A stretch of DNA of 64,000 nt from a virus. The stretch covers positions 1 through 64,000 of the IMG/VR virus record IMGVR_UViG_3300038443_002312. The stretch is one strand, 5' to 3'. The notes below the pieces were generated by a model. That model made no database searches. It saw nothing but the letters and a program-made list of their open reading frames with translations, and was not told where the DNA came from. Of the stretch, positions 2,921-53,125 are shown in pieces; position 1 is the stretch's first letter; the number at the start of each line of letters is the position of its first letter. A program made the position numbers and the translations under genes.

Positions 2921-3336
2921 CAGCGGGCGCCCTCCCGCGGGGGGCTCGTCCAGTCCAGGTCGACCTGGTTCTGCCCGAAGTCGTTCATCCGCCGGGCCAT
3001 CCAGGTCACCTCCAGGACGAGTTCCTGGAGGTCCGGGCGGTCGCCCAGTTCCTGGTACAGGGCCCCCAGGAGCGAGCAGACGAACCGGTGGTGCCCGGGC
3101 TTGTACAGCCACAGGTCGGCGTTCAGGTGCCGGGCCTGTTCGAGCCGGTCGGCCGCGGTGAACGGGGCGAACGGGACGGTGTCCCGGACGGCCAGGAGCC
3201 GGCGGGGCCGCCCGGTCCCCGGGTCCGGGCCGGCGGCGGCCGCCGGGAAGTTGGCCGCCCGGCAGTGGGGGCAGGTGACCTCGGCGGCCGCCCGGCCCCG
3301 GCTCCACCCGCCGCAGACGCACTCGATCCCCGGCAT
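2920..3336 (-). CDS. Hypothetical protein with N-terminal Zn-ribbon (CxC...CxxC)
   Basis: MPGIECVCG...TCPHCRAAN; start/stop overlap with both neighbours. Confidence 0.6.
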   Translation of the reverse strand: MPGIECVCGGWSRGRAAAEVTCPHCRAANFPAAAAGPDPGTGRPRRLLAVRDTVPFAPFTAADRLEQARHLNADLWLYKPGHHRFVCSLLGALYQELGDRPDLQELVLEVTWMARRMNDFGQNQVDLDWTSPPREGAR

Positions 3337-12524: not shown

Positions 12525-14336
12525 TCAGTGAGCGCCGTTGGCACCGGCCCCGAGTCGCCCGATCCCGCGGTACAGGTCGCGGACGAGGGTCAGATTGGGG
12601 ACGGCGTCCCCGGGGAGGAGTAGGTCGGTCGGGCGGACCGACGGCGGGCCGGCGAGTTGCTTCCGCGGGGCCCGGGACGTGGTCCGGGACCCGGCGGGCC
12701 CGACCCGGCCGGCGGGGCCGGTCCGCGAGGCGGGGCCGGTCCGCTGGGGCTGGTCGGGGCCGGGCGTACCGCCCGGCTGGCGACTGCCGGCCGGGCTCGA
12801 CCCCGGCGGCGGCTTCCCTCCCGGCCCGGAACTGCCAGAGGTGGAAGAAGGATTCGCAGTAGTATCGGGGACCCCCTCGCCGAGGTCAATACCAAGTTTC
12901 TTGGCGAGCACCCCGGCGACGTCGGTCCCGATCAGGAGGTCGCCGATGTCGGCCGGGAGCGGCGGGAGTTTCCGCCGCTTGCGGGCCTCGTTGAACGTCA
13001 CGTACCCGTACCGGCAGTCGAGGTCGTGCTCCCGCTCGGCCTGCTCCTTGTCGTGGATCGGCGGGGTCGGGACGTGGACCTCGATGTCCCCGCCGAACGC
13101 CGGGGCCAGGTCGTGTTCGAGGGCGTCGGCCAGGAGTTGCAGGATCGGGGCGACGGCCTGGTCCATGAAGCTGATCATGGCCGCGTAGTACGCGGCGTAC
13201 GCCCCGGGCTCCTGGAACCCGCACGCGATCGGGGTGACCCCGAAGAGGCCGAGGATGTTGTGCCCGATCGCCGTCCGCCCGTTGGCGTAGTCGAGTTCGC
13301 GGACCGACCGGTCGGCGTCCGCGATCTCGACCCCCTTCGGCAGGCGCATGTGCCGGCCGACGTTGTCCGGGCCGCCGAGCCGGCTGCGGATGATCGCGTC
13401 GAACCGGTCGGACTCCTCCCGGGTGGGCTCCTCGGCCGCGTTCTGCATCTGGAAGATGTACCCCGGGCGGAGGGTGTTCTTGAACCCGGCCCAGGTCGCC
13501 CGGTCCAGCTGGTTGCCGACGTCGATCCACAACTGGCCGGCGTCCATCGGGGAGAGGGCGTCGGTCAGGAAGCACACGTGCGGCCACCGGATCGGCATGA
13601 CCTCCCGGCCGTCCACGACCCCGCCACTGATCATCAGGTTCATCCACGACACGTCGCCGAACGGGTCGGCGTCCGGCCGCATCCCGCCGAACGTCCCGAC
13701 CGGCATGACCCGGTACGCCCCGTTCGGGTACTCGCGGGCGTCCGGCGGGACCGGGAAGGTGATCCCGGTCGGGATGATGTACAACTGCCGCGGCGTCCCC
13801 CGCCGGTCGAACCGGCGGACCCCGTCCCGCCGGACCCACATGAGCGTGGTCCCGGTCGCGCACGACTGCTGCGCGTGCTGGAACAAGAACTGCCCGCGGG
13901 TCATCCACGGGTTCGGCCGGCGGAGCAGGCGGTTGAGGGGGAAGTCCGGCGGGAGCGGGACCGAGTCCCCGCCGTCGTGGTTGGACGCCTGGACCGTCGC
14001 CTTGAAGTGGTCGTAGACCTCGGTCGGGACGAGCCCCTTCCGGTGCGCCTTGTGGGCCCGGTGCAGGATGTCGGCGGCCCGGGCCCCGGTCGCGAAACAG
14101 ATCGGCTGGGCCTTCGCGCACACCCGGGCCACCGCCCGGACGGCCGCGAACGTCCACCCGGTCACCAGGCGGGATTCTACGAAGTGGTTGGACGCCCAGC
14201 CGCCCGGCCCGCCGCCCGCCACGTACAGCGGGAACTGGCTCGGGACGGCCGTGTTGAAGCCCTTTTCGGCGGCCGAAACGGGGGCGGACGGCCCCTCGGG
14301 GCCGTCCCGCGATTGCAACCAGCCTGCGACGTTCAT
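12525..14336 (-). CDS. Phage portal protein
   Basis: LNRLLRRPNPWMT..F, ALSPM, ILGLFGVTP, VTFNEARKRRKLPPLP; sits upstream of protease and capsid. Confidence 0.85.
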   Translation of the reverse strand: MNVAGWLQSRDGPEGPSAPVSAAEKGFNTAVPSQFPLYVAGGGPGGWASNHFVESRLVTGWTFAAVRAVARVCAKAQPICFATGARAADILHRAHKAHRKGLVPTEVYDHFKATVQASNHDGGDSVPLPPDFPLNRLLRRPNPWMTRGQFLFQHAQQSCATGTTLMWVRRDGVRRFDRRGTPRQLYIIPTGITFPVPPDAREYPNGAYRVMPVGTFGGMRPDADPFGDVSWMNLMISGGVVDGREVMPIRWPHVCFLTDALSPMDAGQLWIDVGNQLDRATWAGFKNTLRPGYIFQMQNAAEEPTREESDRFDAIIRSRLGGPDNVGRHMRLPKGVEIADADRSVRELDYANGRTAIGHNILGLFGVTPIACGFQEPGAYAAYYAAMISFMDQAVAPILQLLADALEHDLAPAFGGDIEVHVPTPPIHDKEQAEREHDLDCRYGYVTFNEARKRRKLPPLPADIGDLLIGTDVAGVLAKKLGIDLGEGVPDTTANPSSTSGSSGPGGKPPPGSSPAGSRQPGGTPGPDQPQRTGPASRTGPAGRVGPAGSRTTSRAPRKQLAGPPSVRPTDLLLPGDAVPNLTLVRDLYRGIGRLGAGANGAH

Positions 14337-14344
14337 AGCCGGGG

Positions 14345-14373
14345 ATTATCCCCGCCGCGGGCCGTTTGGTCAA
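14345..14373 (-). promoter_or_regulatory. Sigma70-like promoter for the portal operon (probably leaderless mRNA)
   Basis: TTGACC-N17-GATAAT, 8 nt before the portal ATG. Confidence 0.6.
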
Positions 14374-14417
14374 CCGGACTGGTGTTCCGCGGAACGCCAA
14401 CGGGTTGGCGGGGAACG

Positions 14418-14443
14418 AAAAAACCGGGGCCGGGCCCCGGTTT
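14418..14443 (-). terminator. Rho-independent terminator ending the guide-array transcript
   Basis: Minus strand AAACCGGGGC-CCG-GCCCCGG-TTTTTT. Confidence 0.8.
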
Positions 14444-14457
14444 CTGCTGCATACCCC

Positions 14458-14621
14458 CTCGCCCTCACCCGCACCTCATCCCGTCACCCGCGTACCCTCA
14501 CCCCATACCCCTCACCCGCGAACCGCTGAACCAGTCCCACCTCACCCGCGAACCCGGACGCAGTTCCCCTCACCCGATCGGTGCGCCACCCTCGCCCGCG
14601 TGGCGGTGGACCCCTCACCCG
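14458..14621 (-). CRISPR. Mini-repeat array C (~8 units, repeat ~(CG)CGGGTGAGGG)
   Basis: Plus-strand CCCTCACCCG(CG) variants separated by unique spacers, degenerating toward the terminator; non-canonical CRISPR-like. Confidence 0.6.
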
Positions 14622-14729
14622 GTCGCGAGACGTCGTCGAAAAATCGCGGGCCGGCCTACCCGGGTCGCCCCGGATAATCAGCCGGTTACGGGGCCGACTG
14701 GGACCCCGTGCTGGCCTGAGAGTGGGCCA
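14612..14729 (-). ncRNA. Structured guide-RNA scaffold (tracr/omega-like), copy 1
   Basis: Homologous to 16734-16847 with compensatory base changes in two helices and a GNRA loop; ends in the first repeat of array C. Confidence 0.75.
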
Positions 14730-14761
14730 TTGTGTCTCGCGGAACACCCGTCATCGTCAAC

Positions 14762-15066
14762 GCCTCACCCGCGGGATCATGAGCCCTCGCCCGGCTTCCA
14801 CCCGTCTCACCCGACCGACTTTGCGCCTCTCGCCCGCGGGTCCGGTTATGATCCCCTCGCCCGACCGAACCTCTCACCCCTCACCCGCGGGTCTGAGCCT
14901 GTGACCCCTCGCCCGCGACAGTTCCCGGTTCTTCTGCCCCTCACCCGTCGAACCTCGCCCTCACCCGCGGCCCTTCGCGAACTCCTTCCCCTCGCCCGGA
15001 TGTCCTGGGTCTGGTTCTCCCTCATCCGCGACCCCACCCGCCAGCCCATCCCCGCTCTCACCCGCG
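14762..15066 (-). CRISPR. Mini-repeat array B (~12 units, repeat ~(CG)CGGGYGAGGG)
   Basis: Repeat starts near 14762, 14784, 14804, 14827, 14854, 14878, 14906, 14938, 14958, 14989, 15019, 15055; unique spacers of about 10-24 nt. Confidence 0.65.
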
Positions 15067-15068
15067 AC

Positions 15069-16367
15069 TCACTCCTCCTCGTCGGCGAAGACGACCACAC
15101 ACCCCATCTCCTCCAGCTTGTACCGGAGGCTCTGCCGGAACTGGGTCCAATTCCACGGGTGCCCGGCCAGGCACCCGACCGGCGGCCCGCCGTTGAAACT
15201 GCGGGTCGGCAGGGCGGCCACGCGGACGATCCCGCACCGCCACTGCCGCGCCCGGTCGGCGATCCGCCGGGTCCAGGCGTGGTTCCGGGCCTTCTGCCCC
15301 TCCTCGCGCTGGGCCGTGGCCCGGGCCAGGGTGGCCTGGTTGACCGCCCACCCCTTGCCGAACCCCCACGGCCGCCGCGGGCTCCCGCAGTCGCCGCGCC
15401 GCCGCTCCAGGGCCGCCCGGCGGTTGGCCGCGTAGGCCAGGAAGGCCCGGACGTCGGCCGCCCCGAGCGTGTCGGCCGTCTCCGCCCCGTCCGGCCCGGC
15501 CAGCCCGAAGAGGGGCAGGTCGGCCGACGGGTCGCGCCGGCCCTCCGGGACCAGGTCGGTCGCCCCGTCCCGCGGGGTGACCACGAGGGTCCGGGCCGGG
15601 TCCAGGTCCGCGGCCGACCGCGGTCGCTCGTGCGACACGGTGGCGAACAGCTTGCCGTCGACCTCGGACAGGAAGACCGTGCCGAGCTTCCACCCGTCGG
15701 CCCCGTCCCGCAGGGCCTGCCACACCCGCCACCGCCCGCCGTCGAGGTTCTGGGTCAGTTGGAAGGCGACCTCGCCGATGTCCCGGTCCCAGCGCAGGAC
15801 CAGGGCCCGCTTGTCGAGCCGGGGCTTGGCCGTGGCGACCGGGAGGCCGATCCCGCGGCGGTTGAACTGGGCCAGCCCGCGGGCCCCCTGGAGGACCAGC
15901 CAGCCGCGGGTCGCCTGCGGGAACTCCGGGTCCCGGGCCTGCCACGCGGTCTGGAGGTCCCGGCGGGCGCTGTCGTTGACGAACGCGAGCATGGTCGGCA
16001 ACTGGCGGGCGACCTCGGCCCGCAGTTCGTACACCGGGCCCCGCGGGATCTTGACCTGGTAGACCTCGCCGTCGCCGCGCTTGCGCTCCTCGGGGACCAC
16101 GACCTCCGCCGTCGCCTGCCCGTGGGCCAGGGCGGCCAAGACTTTGGCGTTGTTGTTGCTCGGGGTCACCCGGCACTCGTCCCCGGTCCAGGTGATCTCG
16201 GCCCCGGCCGCCCGGGACTCGGCCATCAGCCCGTAGCAGTGCCGCAGGCACGCCCGGTAGGCCCGGACCGACGCCACCACCCGCTTGCGGTCCTCGGCCC
16301 GGTCGGCCGGCATCGCCAGATCGACCCGGAGCGACCGCTGGACGCCTTTCGCCTCTGCTGCCGCCAT
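15069..16367 (-). CDS. Nuclease-dead, C-terminally truncated TnpB/Cas12f-like RNA-guided DNA-binding protein (432 aa)
   Basis: DGKLFATVSHERP..DLDPARTLVVT (RuvC-I position, no Asp); RNHAWTRRIADRARQWRCGIVRVAALP (RuvC-II, Glu replaced by Ala); WNWTQFRQSLRYKLEEMGCVVVFAD; no Zn finger or RuvC-III. GGAG RBS before ATG 16367. Confidence 0.7.
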   Translation of the reverse strand: MAAAEAKGVQRSLRVDLAMPADRAEDRKRVVASVRAYRACLRHCYGLMAESRAAGAEITWTGDECRVTPSNNNAKVLAALAHGQATAEVVVPEERKRGDGEVYQVKIPRGPVYELRAEVARQLPTMLAFVNDSARRDLQTAWQARDPEFPQATRGWLVLQGARGLAQFNRRGIGLPVATAKPRLDKRALVLRWDRDIGEVAFQLTQNLDGGRWRVWQALRDGADGWKLGTVFLSEVDGKLFATVSHERPRSAADLDPARTLVVTPRDGATDLVPEGRRDPSADLPLFGLAGPDGAETADTLGAADVRAFLAYAANRRAALERRRGDCGSPRRPWGFGKGWAVNQATLARATAQREEGQKARNHAWTRRIADRARQWRCGIVRVAALPTRSFNGGPPVGCLAGHPWNWTQFRQSLRYKLEEMGCVVVFADEEE

Positions 16368-16395
16368 GCCGGAACTCCGTGTGCCCCATGACAAG

Positions 16396-16743
16396 CCGTC
16401 ACCCGCGACCGGTTGCCACCCGCATCCCCTCACCCCGCATCCGCCGCCGGAATAGCCCTTCACCCGCGACCTGCCACAGGTCGGTTCCCGTCACCCGCGG
16501 CATCTCCCGCCGATGTTCCCGTCACCCGCAGTTCAGATTGAGCCATCACCCGCTGGCCCGACTGTTCGTCCCCCGATGCTCACCCGTCACCCGCTGGCGA
16601 CCGCTGGGCACACCCCGTCACCCACTGTTCCGAACCTTGCCGTCACCCGCGGCCGGCCATTCCGGGTTACCATCACCCGAGACACCCGAGAGCCAACCGT
16701 CACCCGCGGGCCGGGCACGCCACCCGGATGGGACCCTCGCCCG
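16396..16743 (-). CRISPR. Mini-repeat array A (~12 units, repeat ~(C)GCGGGTGACGG)
   Basis: Repeat starts near 16396, 16427, 16457, 16488, 16519, 16543, 16584, 16615, 16640, 16670, 16697, 16734; period mostly 24-31 nt; unique spacers. Confidence 0.7.
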
Positions 16744-16847
16744 GTCGCGGTGTCAAAGAAAAGTCGCGGGCCGACCTGCCGGGTTGCCCCGGTAATCAGT
16801 CGGTTAGCCGGCCGACTCGGGCCGGCTGTTGGCCTGAAGGTGGGCCA
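16734..16847 (-). ncRNA. Structured guide-RNA scaffold (tracr/omega-like), copy 2
   Basis: Hairpins GGCC-CACCTTCA-GGCC, AGCCGGCC/GGCCGGCT, CCGAC..CCGGG-GCAA-CCCGG..GTCGG, then anti-repeat CCCGCG; begins at the predicted TSS. Confidence 0.75.
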
Positions 16848-16854
16848 CGAACTA

Positions 16855-16883
16855 AATCTATACACACCGACAGGAGTGGTCAA
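16855..16883 (-). promoter_or_regulatory. Sigma70-like promoter driving scaffold/array/dTnpB unit
   Basis: TTGACC-N17-TAGATT about 7 nt upstream of scaffold copy 2. Confidence 0.7.
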
Positions 16884-17272
16884 GGGGCCGGGGACGATTC
16901 TGCCAGAGTGTTGTCAGGGGTGGCGAGCCAGGCGGCCAGGGTGGCGGCCGACAGGCCGACCGGGTAGACGTCCTCGGGCCGCGCGGCCGGGGCGCGGGAG
17001 ACCTGGAGGGCGTGCCGAACCCCGCGGTCGGACACTTTGGCGTCGGGAACGGAGCGGCCGTTCCCGCCGACGACCCGGGCCGCCCGCTCGCAGAACAGGG
17101 GGTCGAGCCCGGGCTCCGGGCCCGGCCGGTTGTGCGGGGCCTTGCGGGCCCACCGCCGCCAGGCGGCGGCCCGGCGGACGGCCCGCCAGTAGCGGGCACT
17201 GAGTTTCCGGAGCAGGCAGAACGTCGCGTAGTCGACGGGGTGGTAGCCCCAGCGGGACTGGTAGGTGGTCAC
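16880..17272 (-). CDS. Hypothetical protein
   Basis: VTTYQSRWGYHPVDYATFCLLRKL...; GGAG RBS. Confidence 0.55.
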   Translation of the reverse strand: MTTYQSRWGYHPVDYATFCLLRKLSARYWRAVRRAAAWRRWARKAPHNRPGPEPGLDPLFCERAARVVGGNGRSVPDAKVSDRGVRHALQVSRAPAARPEDVYPVGLSAATLAAWLATPDNTLAESSPAP

Positions 17273-17304
17273 TTTTGAGCACTCCCGAGTAGCGGAAACG
17301 AACG

Positions 17305-17343
17305 AAAAAAGCCGCGGGCCCGCCCGGCGACGGGGCCCGCGGC
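17305..17343 (-). terminator. Rho-independent terminator
   Basis: 11-bp stem GCCGCGGGCCC/GGGCCCGCGGC followed by T6 on the minus strand. Confidence 0.8.
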
Positions 17344-17649
17344 CACGGCGGTCAGTTCCCCGCCCCGGTCCTCCTCGCGGAACTCCTCCACGGGCAGGCC
17401 GGCGGCGGTCAGGCGGGCCCGGGCGGCGGCCAGGGCGGCCTCGTCGGGGACGGCGAGCAGGACGAGATGGGGGTGGGGGAGGAAGGCGAGGGGCCGGGAA
17501 CGAACCGCCTCGATGGCGGCGTGGCACGCCTGAACGGCAGGCTGGGCCCCGGGCAGATCGGCGCGGACGAGGACGTACAGGTAGGACGGCCGGCGGGGCT
17601 CAGACGGGCCGGCGCATTCACGTAAACCCGGACATGGGAACCTCCTCAG

Positions 17650-17722
17650 ACCACCCGGTCGGGATCGAACCGACGTGTCACCGATTTGAAGTTCGGTTGC
17701 CGTTCCACTTGGCTACGGGTGG
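17650..17722 (-). tRNA. tRNA-like gene with 8-nt anticodon loop ACUUCAAA (contains UCA)
   Basis: Acceptor CCACCCG/CGGGTGG, D-arm GCC-AAGTGGAAC-GGC, anticodon stem ACCGA/TCGGT, T-arm GTCGG-TTCGATC-CCGAC. Confidence 0.75.
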
Positions 17723-17733
17723 AAGATTAAGGT

Positions 17734-17910
17734 AACCGGGGGCAGGGGTCGAACCTGCGACCACGGCTTACAAGGCCGCCGCTCTTGCCGGTCGGGCGGG
17801 CGGTTTACACGGGGCCGCGCTAGCTCGGCCGTCCCCCGCCTGCCCCGTCGGCCCCGGGACCGTCCGCTTGTACCTGCGGCGCAGTTACCGGCCTTCTGAG
17901 CTACCCCGGC
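17734..17910 (-). tRNA. tRNA-Thr(UGU) with ~100-nt insertion in the D-loop
   Basis: GCCGGGG-TA-GCTC-[113-nt D-loop]-GAGC-G-GCGGC-CTTGTAA-GCCGT-GGTC-GCAGG-TTCGACC-CCTGC-CCCCGGT. Confidence 0.7.
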
Positions 17911-17913
17911 ACG

Positions 17914-17940
17914 AAAAAAGGGCGGCCCGAGCCCGCCCCG
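17914..17940 (-). terminator. Terminator-like hairpin plus U-tract directly 5' of the interrupted tRNA-Thr
   Basis: GGGCGG-GCTCGGG-CCGCCC-TTTTTT on the minus strand. Confidence 0.6.
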
Positions 17941-18097
17941 CACACTCTGTCACCGAACCGCACATGGAGGGAGTCGTTCGGATGGAGGAAGTCACTTGCG
18001 ATCCGGGGTGTCCGCCGACGGTTCCCGGCTTGGTCTGCCGGTCGCCTGAAGCGGACGTCACGCCACCTTGGGTTGTACGGTTGCCAGTGAGATCGAA

Positions 18098-18264
18098 TAC
18101 CCGGCGGGGGAGTCGAACCGCCCATCTCCGGCTTAGCCGCCGGTGTCCTCCCAGGGATTGACGGGTGCAGGCGGTACTCGGTCGGGCGTCGTTGGGTGAC
18201 CTGCCACTTACCGACACCGACCGCACCTGCCGTCTCGCCCCTGCCTCCGCTGAACGAGCCGGGC
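18098..18264 (-). tRNA. tRNA-like gene with large D-loop insertion and aberrant 6-nt anticodon loop (GGCUAA)
   Basis: Acceptor GCCCGGC/GCCGGGT, D-stem GTTC/GGAC enclosing ~100 nt, CCGGC/GCCGG stem, GGTTCGACT T-loop. Confidence 0.55.
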
Positions 18265-18330
18265 TTGTTTAGGTCCGGGGCGACGAAAGAGGTGTCGCCC
18301 ATTCACCCGGAGATCCCCGCCCCGGACCAG

Positions 18331-18400
18331 ACGCCCCACCGGGACTCGAACCCGGACCTGCCCCTTTGATAGGGCCGTGCTGCCATCGCACCCTGGGACG
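18331..18400 (-). tRNA. tRNA-like gene with non-canonical anticodon arm
   Basis: Acceptor CGTCCCA/TGGGGCG, D-arm GTGC/GCAC, T-arm CCGGG-TTCGAGT-CCCGG; anticodon arm GCCCT-ATCAAA-GGGGC is 1 nt short. Confidence 0.6.
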
Positions 18401-18485
18401 AAAACCCCGGCATCCTCTTCCGGGGCGCCGGGCCGCGGGGAAGCCCCGACCTCTCAAGGAAGGGCCCGCGGCGACCGACTCCCTA

Positions 18486-18516
18486 AATCTATACGCACAG
18501 GCACGGAACGTGTCAA
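18486..18516 (-). promoter_or_regulatory. Sigma70-like promoter for the tRNA-like cluster
   Basis: TTGACA-N17-TATAGA(TTTAG); shares GTATAGATTTAG with the 16855 promoter. Confidence 0.65.
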
Positions 18517-18722
18517 GCCCGGGCAACGGCATTCTCGCGCGGCCGGCGGACCGGGCCCGGCTTCCGCGGCGGGACCGGCGGCCCGGCCGGCGGGGCCAGC
18601 ACCCCGCGGGCGGCGGCCCGCAGGACGGCGTCCCGCTCCTCCCACACCAGGTCCGCGATCACCTCCGACTCGGTCGCGAACGGGTCCGCCAGCAAACGCT
18701 CGGTCACCAGGATCGGGTCCAT
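18513..18722 (-). CDS. Hypothetical protein
   Basis: MDPILVTERLLADPF...; GGAGG RBS. Confidence 0.5.
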   Translation of the reverse strand: MDPILVTERLLADPFATESEVIADLVWEERDAVLRAAARGVLAPPAGPPVPPRKPGPVRRPRENAVARA

Positions 18723-22013: not shown

Positions 22014-23381
22014 CTACAGGGTGTTGACCACGTTGATGACCAGGGCGGCCGCCCGGACGTCCTCCTTGTCCCGGGCCTTGCGGACCATCGCGGCCATCAC
22101 GTCGGCCACGTCGTCCGGGGTAACCTTGGCCAGGATGGCGGCCCTCAGGGCGGCGGCCCGGTCGGCGGCCTCGGCGGGGGCGGGGCAGGCCCCGCGGACG
22201 GCGGCGACGGACCGGCGGCCGGGGCCGTCGCCAGCCGGGACAAGAGCGCCACGGTCGGCAGGTAGTGGTCGGGGGCCCGGGCCCCCGACGGCTTGTTCCG
22301 CCTCAGCCGGGCGATCAGCCCCCGGGCCTCCAGTTCCGTCACGTAGTTCCGCCGCCCGCCGCCCGTCCGGGCCGCCCCGATCGAGGTCGACAGGCCGCAC
22401 GCCGAGAGCCACTCCGCCCGGGTCAGGGCCCGGCCGGCGGTCGCCAGGGCGACCGCCAGGTGGACCTCCTTCGGCCGCAGGTCCGCCGGCAGGTTGTACG
22501 CCCGGGCCAGGGCCTCCGCCCGGGCCCGCTCGGCCAGCAGTTTCCCCCAGCTCCCCCGGCTCGCCAGGGCCGCCATCTTCGCCACCGCCGCCGAGCGGGC
22601 CGGAGGGCCCGGGTCGTTCGAATCCGTCACGGGCAAATCCCTCCCTGACCGCCGTGGCCACCGCTTCGAGGGCGGCCGCCTTGTCCCGGTCGACCACCCG
22701 CCCGTCCGGGGCCAGGACGGCCCGCAGGTCGAACCGGGCCCGGGCCTCGCGCTGGGCGACCCGCTGGCGGCTCATGCCCAATTGCTCCCCGATCTGCCGC
22801 ATGGTCAGCCCGTCGAACGCCCGGAGCCGGAGGATTTGCAGGTCGAGCGGGCGGAGGACCCGGGCGGCCAGGTCCCACAGGTCGGTCACCTCGGCCCCGG
22901 GCTCGACCCCGCGGTCCGGGACCAGGTCCCGGCCGGCGATCTTGCCGTCGTCGCCGCCCGGCCCGCCGCCCATGTCGTCGAGGCTCGGCCCCCACCCCCA
23001 GTAGAACGCCGCCTTGGCCTCGCCGCAGTTGACGTGCACCCCGCGGTTACTCTCGGCCAGGACGTGCTTGCGGATGGCCGAGTGGATCGAGTGCCCGGCG
23101 GCCGTCTGGAAGCTGGCCCCGCGGGTCGGGTTGAACCGCCGGGCCCCGATCACCAGCCCGAATTCGGCCGCCCCGCAGATGTCGTCGAAGTCGAGGGCCG
23201 GGTGGTTCGCCGCCCACTGTTTGGCGTACCGCCGGGCCAGGGGCCGCCACTGGCGGATGTGGGCGTCCTGGCACGCGGCGCACAACCGGGGCGGGCCGGC
23301 CATCGGCAGCGGGCGGCGGGCGTACCGCCGCGGGGTGGCCGTCGGGTTGAGGCGTTTGGGCGGGGCGGTCGGCGCGGGCAA
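22014..23381 (-). CDS. Sigma-70 family RNA polymerase sigma factor (regions 2 and 4); C-terminal extension doubtful
   Basis: DFDDICGAAEFGLVIGARRFNPTRGASFQTAAGHSI (region 2); ILRLRAFDGLTMRQIGEQLGMSRQRVAQRE (region 4 HTH). Confidence 0.75.
   Translation of the reverse strand: MPAPTAPPKRLNPTATPRRYARRPLPMAGPPRLCAACQDAHIRQWRPLARRYAKQWAANHPALDFDDICGAAEFGLVIGARRFNPTRGASFQTAAGHSIHSAIRKHVLAESNRGVHVNCGEAKAAFYWGWGPSLDDMGGGPGGDDGKIAGRDLVPDRGVEPGAEVTDLWDLAARVLRPLDLQILRLRAFDGLTMRQIGEQLGMSRQRVAQREARARFDLRAVLAPDGRVVDRDKAAALEAVATAVREGFARDGFERPGPSGPLGGGGEDGGPGEPGELGETAGRAGPGGGPGPGVQPAGGPAAEGGPPGGRPGDRRPGPDPGGVALGVRPVDLDRGGPDGRRAAELRDGTGGPGADRPAEAEQAVGGPGPRPLPADRGALVPAGDGPGRRSVAAVRGACPAPAEAADRAAALRAAILAKVTPDDVADVMAAMVRKARDKEDVRAAALVINVVNTL
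22145..22630 (-). CDS. Putative winged-helix DNA-binding protein (overlaps the sigma ORF tail)
   Basis: LRPKEVHLAVALA..ALTRAEW..NYVTELEARGLIARL; GGAGG RBS. Confidence 0.45.
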   Translation of the reverse strand: MTDSNDPGPPARSAAVAKMAALASRGSWGKLLAERARAEALARAYNLPADLRPKEVHLAVALATAGRALTRAEWLSACGLSTSIGAARTGGGRRNYVTELEARGLIARLRRNKPSGARAPDHYLPTVALLSRLATAPAAGPSPPSAGPAPPPPRPPTGPPP

Positions 23382-51797: not shown

Positions 51798-52520
51798 TCA
51801 GGCCGCCCCCGTGTCCATGAACCCGGTGAAGTCCATCCGCCCGGCCAGCCGGGCGAGGATCTTGACCTCCAGCTGCCGGACCCGCTCGCGGGTGATCCCG
51901 AAGGTCGCCCCGACCGCGTCCAGGGTCAGCCCCTCGACGAACCGCAGGCGGACGACCTCGGCCTGCCGCGGGTCGAGCCAGCGGTTGACCTCCCGCCAGA
52001 ACGCCGCCCGGTCCAGGCTGGCGCCGCCCTCCTCGGTCGGGTCCCGCTCGGTGTCGTCCGCGAGCAGGGGCCCGCGCGGCGACCGGGTGAGGTCCCCCTT
52101 CGTCGCCCCGATCGGCTGGTCGAGCGAGACCGGGCGGTGGACGTAGCGCATCTCGGTCTCGTTCGGGACCCGGGCCCCGGCGTTCGACTCGCGGGCCCGG
52201 AACCGGCGGAGGCGCATCTCGACCCAGTAGGTGGCGTAGGTCAGGTACGACGTCCCGCGGGTCGGGTCGTACCGCCGGGCCGCGAGGACCAGGCCCACGA
52301 CCGCCTCCTGCCGCATGTCGTCGAGGGCCACCGCCGCCCGGTTCATCTGCCACCACCGGTACGCCAGCCCGAAGGCCAGCGGGCGGAACCGGACGACGAC
52401 CGCCTCGCGCTCCGGGGCGGTCAGGTAGGGCAGGTCGGCCGCGGGGCCGCCGTCGTCCGCGAGGCGGCCGAGGGCCGCCTCGTCCGCCCCGTCCCACTCG
52501 ACCGGGGTGGCCCGCCTCAG
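51798..52520 (-). CDS. Sigma-70 family RNA polymerase sigma factor (start uncertain)
   Basis: LDDMRQEAVVGLVLAARRYDPTRGTSYLTYATYWV; VSLDQPI; VVRLRFVEGLTLDAVGATFGITRERVRQLE. Confidence 0.85.
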   Translation of the reverse strand: MRRATPVEWDGADEAALGRLADDGGPAADLPYLTAPEREAVVVRFRPLAFGLAYRWWQMNRAAVALDDMRQEAVVGLVLAARRYDPTRGTSYLTYATYWVEMRLRRFRARESNAGARVPNETEMRYVHRPVSLDQPIGATKGDLTRSPRGPLLADDTERDPTEEGGASLDRAAFWREVNRWLDPRQAEVVRLRFVEGLTLDAVGATFGITRERVRQLEVKILARLAGRMDFTGFMDTGAA

Positions 52521-53125
52521 CGGGGGCGGGTCAGTTCCTCCAGCCGCCGCTCCCCCGCCGGGGTCAGCCGCCACTTCGCCCCGGTCGACCACCCGGTCAG
52601 CTGGAACAGGTGGCGGTGGACCGCCATCGCGTTCCGGGTCGACTGGGCCGACCGGCCGACCGCCCGGGCCAGCACGGTCACCTTGGTCGGCCCGCCCGCG
52701 AGCAGGCGGATCAGGCGGTCCACGACGTCGCCCCCGGCTGGGACCGGGTCCGGGGCGACGGCTTTTCCCGGTGGGGCCGCCGGGCGGTCCGGCCGCGGCG
52801 GGGGCGGGGCGAAGCAGGGGGCCGGGGGCGGTGGCCCCGGGTCCGGCTGGTCGGGGTCCGGCGCCCGGGCCGGCAGCGCGTCGACCAGTCGCGGCGGCGC
52901 GTCCCGGGCGACGACGACCAGGGCGGCGATGGGTCCGGCCTCGGCGACCACCCGGACGGCCTCCCGGCCCAGCAGGCGGGCCAGGGCGTTCCGCTGGGCC
53001 ACGAATTCGGCCAGCCGCGCGTCGGCCGCCGCCAGCGTGTCCGCCGACACCCGCGGCAGGACCGCGAGGAAGGCGGCCCACGGGTCGCCTTCCGCCGCCG
53101 TCAGTTCTGCGGGCGACTCTCCCAC
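52517..53125 (-). CDS. Hypothetical protein with C-terminal HTH
   Basis: LIRLLAGGPTKVTVLARAVGRS. Confidence 0.5.
   Translation of the reverse strand: MGESPAELTAAEGDPWAAFLAVLPRVSADTLAAADARLAEFVAQRNALARLLGREAVRVVAEAGPIAALVVVARDAPPRLVDALPARAPDPDQPDPGPPPPAPCFAPPPPRPDRPAAPPGKAVAPDPVPAGGDVVDRLIRLLAGGPTKVTVLARAVGRSAQSTRNAMAVHRHLFQLTGWSTGAKWRLTPAGERRLEELTRPR

What the first reader, a model, noticed from the sequence alone, without database searches (positions are those of the whole stretch)
14458..16847. Mini-repeats are bipartite anti-scaffold handles that appear to co-vary with their cognate scaffold
The 5' half of each repeat (CGCGGG) is complementary to the scaffold CCCGCG, and the 3' half is complementary to the P1 loop. 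Arrays B and C (UGAGGG/UGAGAG) pair with the scaffold-1 loop CUCUCA. Array A (UGACGG/UGAAGG/UGAUGG) fits the scaffold-2 loop CCUUCA, with one variable position. This mirrors the two repeat:anti-repeat duplexes/pseudoknot of Cas12f and TnpB guide RNAs, and implies each spacer is loaded 3' of its repeat, in trans or by register switching (inference). It could be an intermediate between single-guide omegaRNA and tracr/CRISPR architecture.
Basis: partly seen in the sequence, partly recalled or inferred. Interest (0 to 1): 0.8.

Follow-up and report, generated by a model that had tools for sequence, protein, structure and literature searches.

The report
Minimal guide handles of phage dCas12f
A soil phage carries a non-cutting miniature Cas12f with two copies of its scaffold RNA and about 40 twelve-letter repeats; these repeats are the stripped-down ends of normal CRISPR repeats and keep only the letters that pair with the scaffold, which makes this an unusually compact, untested kind of guide array.

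Summary
The repeats and their two-part complementarity to the scaffold are real. The gene between the arrays (15069-16367, minus strand) is a C-terminally truncated, nuclease-dead Cas12f. Relatives in four other lineages carry the same three-hairpin scaffold followed by ordinary CRISPR arrays (29-nt repeat, 32-nt spacer). In all seven scaffold/array modules, the last ~12 nt of the repeat pair with an anti-repeat after hairpin 3 (4-7 bp). In six of seven they also pair with the loop of hairpin 1 (6 bp). The paired letters differ between loci (permutation 8/5040 and 2/5040). The window's 12-13-nt repeats are exactly this segment.

The covariation claimed inside the window is weak. Handles of arrays B and C pair about equally with both loops. 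The main array A variant has a central mismatch with its own scaffold, and only 2 of 13 A handles pair cleanly.

The "evolutionary intermediate" idea is not supported, because the tree places this protein among lineages with canonical arrays, so the mini-repeats are derived.

No targets, RNA data or adaptation genes were found, so function is inferred.

This scan has met phage dCas12f-plus-array systems on other DNA before, and one paper mentions such systems. The 12-nt repeat array is a new variant.

The parts
16855..16883 (-). Sigma-70-like promoter of the module (two hexamers with a 17-nt spacer), ending about 9 nt before hairpin 1 of scaffold 2
   Evidence: one of only 2 promoter-like sites in 14300-18600 (shuffles give a mean of 0.1). 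A similar -10 region recurs before the tRNA cluster near 18486.
16765..16846 (-). Scaffold 2 (tracr-like RNA). Hairpin 1 is 16846-16831 with an 8-nt loop at 16842-16835. Hairpin 2 is 16826-16807. Hairpin 3 is 16803-16771. The anti-repeat hexamer is 16770-16765 and is followed by a U-rich stretch.
   Evidence: Fold z-score -3.4, with loop and anti-repeat unpaired. Hairpins 1 and 2 covary across 7 homologous scaffolds: 11 of 12 pairs show compensatory changes.
16734..16749 (-). Handle 0 of scaffold 2, a repeat-like unit in cis about 15 nt after the anti-repeat. Together with the scaffold it resembles a natural single-guide RNA.
   Evidence: It is conserved between the two scaffold copies.
16396..16733 (-). 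Array A. Twelve further handles follow handle 0 (which is listed separately). In the 13 handles scored, handle 0 included, the fourth letter of the 3' half is C in 8 copies, U in 2, G in 2 and A in 1. Spacers are mostly 18-19 nt. The last handle ends 29 nt before the start codon.
15069..16367 (-). Nuclease-dead Cas12f-like gene (432 aa, P0003). The RuvC-I Asp column holds Thr and the RuvC-II Glu column holds Ala. The protein ends before the zinc ribbon and RuvC-III.
   Evidence: Profile against PDB: OsCas12f 5e-27 and dCas12f 1.6e-15. AF2 pLDDT is 93.8. Foldseek top hits are AsCas12f and dCas12f. The family has 183 clusters, and all but one of the C-termini inspected end at the same point.
14762..15066 (-). 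Array B, with 16 handles starting 2 nt after the stop codon. Several are tandem handles without a usable spacer.
14645..14728 (-). Scaffold 1. Hairpin 1 is 14728-14713 with its loop at 14724-14717. Hairpin 2 is 14708-14689. Hairpin 3 is 14685-14651. The anti-repeat is 14650-14645 and is followed by a run of five U.
   Evidence: Fold z-score -2.6. Hairpins 2 and 3 show compensatory differences from scaffold 2.
14611..14628 (-). Handle 0 of scaffold 1 (cis copy).
14456..14610 (-). Array C, with 10 further handles. The distal ones are tandem and degenerate.
14417..14445 (-). Intrinsic terminator closing the module: a GC-rich hairpin followed by six U. The portal gene's own promoter-like site follows at 14373-14345.
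   Evidence: Fold -19.7 kcal/mol. Promoter scan. Portal gene.

Best explanation
The stretch is one transcription unit of a soil phage. In order it holds: promoter, scaffold 2, array A, a nuclease-dead truncated Cas12f gene, array B, scaffold 1, array C, terminator.

Each 12-13-nt repeat is the minimal crRNA handle of this Cas12f lineage. It is what remains of a 29-nt CRISPR repeat once everything except the scaffold-pairing letters is removed. Its 5' half pairs with the anti-repeat that follows hairpin 3 of the tracr-like scaffold. Its 3' half pairs with the loop of hairpin 1 and closes a pseudoknot. This places the next ~18 nt as the guide.

The protein, probably together with one scaffold and one handle-guide unit, would then bind matching DNA without cutting it and block or modulate transcription of unknown targets in rival elements or the host.

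Shown here: the protein's fold and the loss of its catalytic residues; the scaffold structure; the two pairings and their covariation across loci; the derivation of the handle from canonical repeats.

Inferred: that the arrays are transcribed and processed; that handles downstream of the cis copy are loaded (in trans, or by displacing handle 0); DNA binding; repression.
For: Protein: Cas12f fold and profile matches. No catalytic triad and no zinc ribbon.

Unit boundaries: promoter-like site and terminator.

Scaffolds: both fold alike, with z-scores of -2.6 and -3.4, and leave the loop and anti-repeat free. Hairpins covary across 7 scaffolds.

Relatives L001, L003, L004 and L005 have the same scaffold directly upstream of regular 29/32 arrays.

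Pairing: the repeat's last ~12 nt pair with the hairpin-1 loop, 6 contiguous pairs in 6 of 7 modules, each with different letters (permutation 2/5040). They also pair with the anti-repeat over 4-7 bp (8/5040). L005 holds two modules whose loops and repeats differ by one matched pair, A-U versus G-C.

Handles: conservation is limited to 12 nt while spacers are all different. The modal spacer of 18-19 nt is close to, slightly longer than, the 14-16-nt guides reported for dCas12f (PMC13472631).

Assembly: the same sequence is found without differences in contigs of several soil and rhizosphere runs, so it is not an assembly artefact.
Against: There are no expression data and no identified target or TAM. 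About a third of the handles are tandem copies with 0-5-nt spacers that cannot guide anything. Most array A handles carry a central mismatch with either loop. The 5' half of the handle is complete in only about half of the copies. The duplexes of 6 bp or so are too short for the RNase III processing used by tracr-dependent systems (established knowledge), so maturation is unexplained. No relative with mini-repeats could be fetched, so conservation of this architecture is untested.
Confidence: 0.6

Rival explanations
1. Relic arrays. Only the cis unit of each scaffold (scaffold + handle 0 + the letters after it) is a working single-guide RNA, as in dCas12f-sigmaE or TldR systems. Arrays A, B and C would be decaying, slippage-prone leftovers of a former CRISPR array with no present role.
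For: Spacing is irregular, many handles are tandem or overlapping, and distal copies are degenerate. Array A handles are mismatched to the loops. There are no adaptation genes. Handle 0 and the first letters after it are conserved between the two scaffold copies.
Against: Forty copies keep the same 12 letters while every spacer differs and the flanks carry no information. Plain decay of a 61-nt-period array should leave pieces of the 5' repeat hairpin, yet such traces appear at most in the unit right after each handle 0 and in no other unit. The sharp mode at 30-31 nt is not expected from random decay.
Confidence: 0.25
2. The handles act as regulators rather than guides. They could be decoys that titrate the scaffold. 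Alternatively, if the TAM is G-rich, they could be self-sites through which the complex binds its own array DNA and autoregulates the operon.
For: Handles outnumber scaffolds by far. Many handles have no spacer. The related dCas12f uses a single 5' G as TAM (PMC13472631), and every spacer here is preceded by G.
Against: This is pure inference and nothing here tests it. Relatives use ordinary arrays with diverse 32-nt spacers, which points to guiding.
Confidence: 0.08
3. The G-rich repeats serve something unrelated to the Cas12f-like gene, such as terminase or other protein-binding sites next to the portal gene, or G-quadruplex elements.
For: The block lies immediately upstream of the portal gene, where packaging signals often sit. 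Each handle holds two G runs.
Against: The handle is homologous to the 3' end of the CRISPR repeats of related loci, and it pairs with the adjacent scaffold in a way that covaries. Array A handles have only one G triplet. All copies are on the gene's sense strand. A collection-wide scan for paired handles found only coding repeats without the gene.
Confidence: 0.04

Closest known systems
CRISPR-array-associated nuclease-dead Cas12f cluster noted by Hoffmann, Wiegand et al., Nature 2026 (PMC13472631)
   Same: A Cas12f-like protein whose C-terminal truncation removes part of RuvC. Arrays lie nearby. A conserved structured RNA sits upstream of the array. A repressor role is proposed.
   Different: That cluster was described only bioinformatically, with a Chitinophagaceae MAG as the example. 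Here the system is on a high-GC soil phage and has two scaffolds, and its repeats are cut down to 12-13 nt with ~18-nt spacers. I could not test whether the two protein groups are the same clade, because their sequences were not at hand.
Type V-F CRISPR-Cas12f1 with tracrRNA (AsCas12f, OsCas12f)
   Same: Best sequence-profile and fold matches. The crRNA pairs with the tracrRNA in two parts, a longer duplex plus a 5-7-bp short duplex that forms a pseudoknot next to the guide (PMC11246509).
   Different: Here the nuclease is dead and the zinc ribbon and RuvC-III are absent. The long duplex is reduced to 4-7 bp. The window's repeats contain nothing beyond the two pairing segments.
dCas12f-sigmaE RNA-guided transcription systems of Bacteroidota (PDB 9n9c)
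   Same: A truncated dead Cas12f fold and short guides.
   Different: Those use chimeric single guides and an adjacent sigma-E gene with a special C-terminal domain. Here no sigma gene adjoins the locus, and none is found near relatives L001-L005. The phage's two sigma-like genes lie about 5 kb and 35 kb away.
TldR (TnpB-like nuclease-dead repressors), partly phage-encoded
   Same: A mobile-element RNA-guided DNA binder without nuclease activity that is used for gene repression.
   Different: TldRs derive directly from TnpB and use one omega-RNA guide at the 3' end of the gene. This protein is closest to CRISPR Cas12f and has arrays.
TIGR-Tas arrays (PMC12045711)
   Same: Phage-associated arrays of short, weakly conserved repeats with short spacers that standard CRISPR finders miss (abstracts only).
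   Different: The effector is unrelated (a Tas protein rather than the TnpB/Cas12 fold), and there is no separate scaffold RNA.

Membership tests
Cas12f / TnpB-fold RNA-guided proteins | WED-REC-RuvC fold and sequence-profile similarity | tested here: met
   Family profile against PDB: OsCas12f 5e-27, AsCas12f about 1e-21. Foldseek gives AsCas12f 2e-14 with TM about 0.6. PADLOC Cas12f 7e-4.
Active type V-F Cas12f nuclease | RuvC Asp-Glu-Asp triad and C-terminal zinc ribbon (TNB domain) | tested here: not met
   The RuvC-I column is Thr and the RuvC-II column is Ala in P0003. The protein ends about 25 positions into the 60-position TNB model. All but one of the family C-termini inspected end there.
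Type V-F guide RNA architecture | tracrRNA pairing with the repeat in two segments, one of which forms a pseudoknot next to the guide | tested here: met
   Tested in silico only: free loop and anti-repeat and cognate complementarity across 7 modules. No RNA data.
CRISPR array (operational definition) | Regular direct repeats of about 23 nt or more, separated by spacers of similar, fixed length | tested here: not met
   In the window the repeats are 12-13 nt and spacing runs from 6 to 41 nt. Relatives L001 and L003-L005 do meet it, with 29/32 units and a period of 61.
CRISPR-Cas adaptive system | cas1/cas2 adaptation genes | tested here: not met
   No Cas1 or Cas2 match in the 115.7-kb record, with positive controls working. 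The record is about 71% complete, and many V-F loci lack these genes anyway.
dCas12f-sigmaE system | Operonic sigma-E gene with a dCas12f-binding C-terminal domain | tested here: not met
   The nearest sigma-like gene is about 5 kb away. Its apparent C-terminal extension loses the coding GC3 signal. No sigma gene is found in L001-L005.
TldR | Direct descent from a transposon TnpB, with a single omega-RNA overlapping the 3' end of the gene | tested here: not met
   The best relatives are CRISPR Cas12f rather than TnpB. The NCBIfam TnpB model scores 15 bits against a cut-off of 100. Scaffolds are separate from the gene and are followed by arrays.

The most novel reading that the evidence does not exclude
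The three blocks form a working, adaptation-independent guide array in which each ~30-nt unit equals one mature crRNA (a 12-13-nt handle plus a ~18-nt guide). A 61-nt CRISPR unit would have lost exactly the part that maturation discards, namely the spacer's 3' half and the next repeat's hairpin. One phage transcript would then supply about 20 guides to a DNA-binding dCas12f through two scaffold RNAs acting in trans. Handle variants, such as the mismatched array A type, would set how strongly each guide is loaded.
Probability: 0.3. Interest if true: 0.8.

Novelty: new variant of a known kind. Interest (0 to 1): 0.6.

Why it matters
If the handles work, this locus shows the smallest natural crRNA repeat for a Cas12-type effector: twelve letters that do nothing but dock onto the tracr-like scaffold. 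That defines by natural experiment which parts of a Cas12f guide are indispensable, which is useful for very compact multiplexed guide arrays. It would also show that a CRISPR array can persist and diversify without any feature that Cas1-Cas2 or repeat-hairpin nucleases recognise. Such arrays are invisible to CRISPR finders, so similar guide sets may be overlooked in phage genomes. It would add a phage case to the growing set of nuclease-dead RNA-guided regulators.

Tried and rejected
- My first Pfam and PHROG calls on the central ORF used the wrong frame. This was corrected.
- Rfam: nothing in the locus.
- Targets within the phage: exact matches of array sequence to the rest of the genome are no longer than for random segments. 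Anchored 14-nt seeds with at most 1 mismatch gave 3 hits, against a shuffled mean of 1.0 and maximum of 4, with no common flanking motif.
- Protein in isolate phages: no match.
The genome scan gave one cut locus. A broad alignment had no usable pattern.
- Collection scans: a scan for the scaffold core found nothing. A scan for paired handles found 48 loci, all without the gene; the six motif clusters I inspected looked like coding repeats.
- Third scaffold matching the array A handle: none found in the record.
- RNA evidence: no RNA holder listed.
- Laid contigs of four DNA runs: fragmentary, and identical where they cover, so they say nothing about array turnover.
- Sigma-factor partnership, considered by analogy with dCas12f-sigmaE: not adjacent and not conserved.
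- A formal pair count of the pseudoknot on a MAFFT alignment was dropped, because the L005 loops and the anti-repeats were out of register. The permutation tests replace it.
Full report
CONTEXT. The window is the first 64 kb of a 115.7-kb IMG/VR virus record, about 71% complete. It is very GC-rich. A portal gene lies at 12525-14336 on the minus strand, and a cluster of odd tRNA-like genes lies at 17.6-18.4 kb. Almost all genes, and everything discussed here, read on the minus strand.

THE OBSERVATION. About 40 copies of a short G-rich unit lie on the sense strand in three blocks: A 16396-16733, B 14762-15066 and C 14456-14610. When the copies are aligned on their core, information is confined to about 12 positions and the flanks carry about 0 bits. 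Spacings run from 6 to 41 nt and are not multiples of three, with a clear mode at 30-31. Nineteen units carry spacers of 12 nt or more, mostly 18-19 nt, and about 14 are tandem handles with almost no spacer. The motif clusters nowhere else in the record. Contigs from several soil and rhizosphere runs reproduce the arrays letter for letter, so this is real DNA.

THE GENE. The correct frame gives a 432-aa protein, P0003 (15069-16367).
- Alone it barely touches Cas12f/TnpB models.
- A profile of 99 family members hits solved Cas12f structures: OsCas12f 5e-27, AsCas12f about 1e-21, natural dCas12f 1.6e-15.
- A confident AlphaFold model (pLDDT 93.8) superposes best on AsCas12f and dCas12f.
- In those alignments the RuvC-I Asp column is Thr and the RuvC-II Glu column is Ala. 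The protein stops right after the strand that precedes the zinc ribbon, so RuvC-III is missing.
- The family has 183 clusters at 50% identity, and all but one of the C-termini inspected end at the same point.
It is therefore a nuclease-dead, truncated Cas12f.

THE SCAFFOLDS. Two paralogous ~85-nt elements (16846-16765 and 14728-14645) fold into the same three hairpins, with z-scores of -3.4 and -2.6. The 8-nt loop of hairpin 1 and a hexamer after hairpin 3 stay single-stranded, and a U-rich stretch follows. The two copies differ by compensatory changes in hairpins 2 and 3. Across seven homologous scaffolds, 11 of 12 predicted pairs in hairpins 1 and 2 show double changes. A promoter-like site ends about 9 nt before scaffold 2, and a strong terminator follows array C. 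The whole stretch from 16883 to 14417 therefore looks like one unit.

RELATIVES. Four further lineages could be read: L001 (viral), L003 and L004 (phage-like context), and L005/L002 (next to a BrxB gene). Each has the same scaffold directly upstream of ordinary CRISPR arrays with 29-nt repeats, 32-nt unique spacers and a period of 61. L005 has two scaffold-array modules in tandem. The window's mini-repeat corresponds to the last ~12 nt of these repeats. The 5' hairpin part of the repeat is absent from the window, except for traces right after each cis handle.

THE PAIRING. In every module the repeat's last ~12 nt fall into two halves.
- The 3' half pairs with the hairpin-1 loop over six contiguous base pairs in six of seven modules, with different letters in each lineage. 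Only 2 of 5040 permutations of scaffolds against repeats do as well.
- The 5' half pairs over 4-7 bp with the segment between hairpin 3 and the U tract (8 of 5040).
- The two L005 modules differ by a single matched pair, A-U versus G-C.
- In L001, two repeat variants change in ways that keep pairing through G-U wobbles.
Two caveats apply. The two window modules are paralogues of each other, as are the two L005 modules, so the seven are really about five independent lineages. Also, within the window alone the anti-repeat hexamer is too common to be meaningful (1 per 661 nt), whereas the loop hexamers are rare. This layout matches what is published for Cas12f1 guide RNAs: a long repeat/anti-repeat duplex plus a 5-7-bp short duplex that forms a pseudoknot (PMC11246509). 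Here the long duplex has shrunk to a few pairs.

WHAT FAILS. The title claim, that the window's arrays co-vary with their own scaffold, is weak.
- The commonest B/C handle pairs with either loop with one wobble.
- Only the minor variant whose fifth letter is A prefers scaffold 1.
- In array A, 8 of 13 handles have C at the fourth position of the 3' half, which is a mismatch in the middle of the helix against either loop. Only 2 of 13 pair with the scaffold-2 loop without a mismatch.
- Array A is significantly different from B+C at that position (Fisher p = 1e-5), and the facing loop letter also differs between the scaffolds. Both sides have changed, but mostly not in a compensatory way.
- No third scaffold that would fit array A exists in the record.

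ORIGIN. In a quick maximum-likelihood tree (midpoint root, so only indicative), P0003 sits in a well-supported clade with P0004-P0009. That clade is nested among lineages whose loci have canonical arrays. The mini-repeats are therefore most simply a secondary reduction and not a step between omega-RNA and CRISPR. A 61-nt unit that loses the spacer's 3' half together with the next repeat's hairpin, which are adjacent, becomes a ~30-nt unit. That is the observed mode, and it is also the size of a mature type V crRNA. This link is my inference. No cas1 or cas2 gene is present.

FUNCTION. No target was found in the phage itself or, for the relatives' spacers, in isolate phages or the held loci. 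No RNA run holds the sequence (this is not evidence either way). By analogy with dCas12f, TldR and Cas12m, I take RNA-guided DNA binding that represses genes of rivals or the host as the most likely role. It is inference.

PRIOR KNOWLEDGE. Nuclease-dead, truncated Cas12f proteins next to CRISPR arrays, with a conserved RNA upstream of the array, are mentioned without tests in Hoffmann, Wiegand et al. 2026 (PMC13472631). Inactivated Cas12f branches appear in the TnpB/Cas12 census (PMC10691335). This scan has followed up similar phage loci in at least seven other genomes, including one note that decaying repeats keep the tracr-pairing cores. I found no paper and no locus with repeats reduced to 12 nt.

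VERDICT. The bipartite handle is real and is well supported by comparison between loci. Cognate covariation within the window and the "intermediate" reading are not supported. Whether the internal units are used as guides is open; I put it at about 0.6.

Noticed in passing
window 17649-17722 (-), 17742-17797 (-), 18330-18400 (-): A cluster of tRNA-like genes with abnormal anticodon loops. ARAGORN reports undetermined anticodons. The Rfam alignment of the first gene shows one extra base in the anticodon loop, which I read as an 8-nt loop in an otherwise clean cloverleaf.
   Followed up: no
window 16855-16883 (-), 14345-14373 (-), and about 18486 (-): Similar promoter-like sites (the same -35 hexamer, a 17-nt spacer and an A/T-rich -10) precede the dCas12f module and the portal gene. 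A similar -10 region alone recurs before the tRNA cluster near 18486. This suggests one class of phage promoters read by a sigma-70-type holoenzyme.
   Followed up: partly
window 22014-23381 (-) and 51798-53081 (-): Two phage-encoded sigma-70-family proteins (regions 2 and 4). The first open frame runs about 235 codons past region 4, but the GC3 signal is lost in codons 251-400. This points to a frame change or a non-coding stretch rather than a real extension.
   Followed up: partly
L005 5162-5779 (and L002): In the bacterial-looking relative, the dCas12f module with two scaffold-array cassettes sits directly upstream of a BrxB (BREX) homologue and downstream of an SNF2-type helicase, which is a defence-island-like setting.
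   Followed up: partly
L001, L003, L004, L005 arrays: All canonical relatives use 29-nt repeats with 32-nt spacers, and each repeat has a 5' hairpin followed by an 8-9-nt tail. That is the format of type I-E arrays, which raises the possibility that these arrays borrow a host type I-E adaptation or processing machinery. L004 carries the same spacer twice in a row (3228-3259 and 3289-3320).
   Followed up: no
window 12525-16367: The gene immediately upstream of the portal gene is the dCas12f module, not a large terminase. No terminase was recognised among the neighbours tested with PHROGs.
   Followed up: partly
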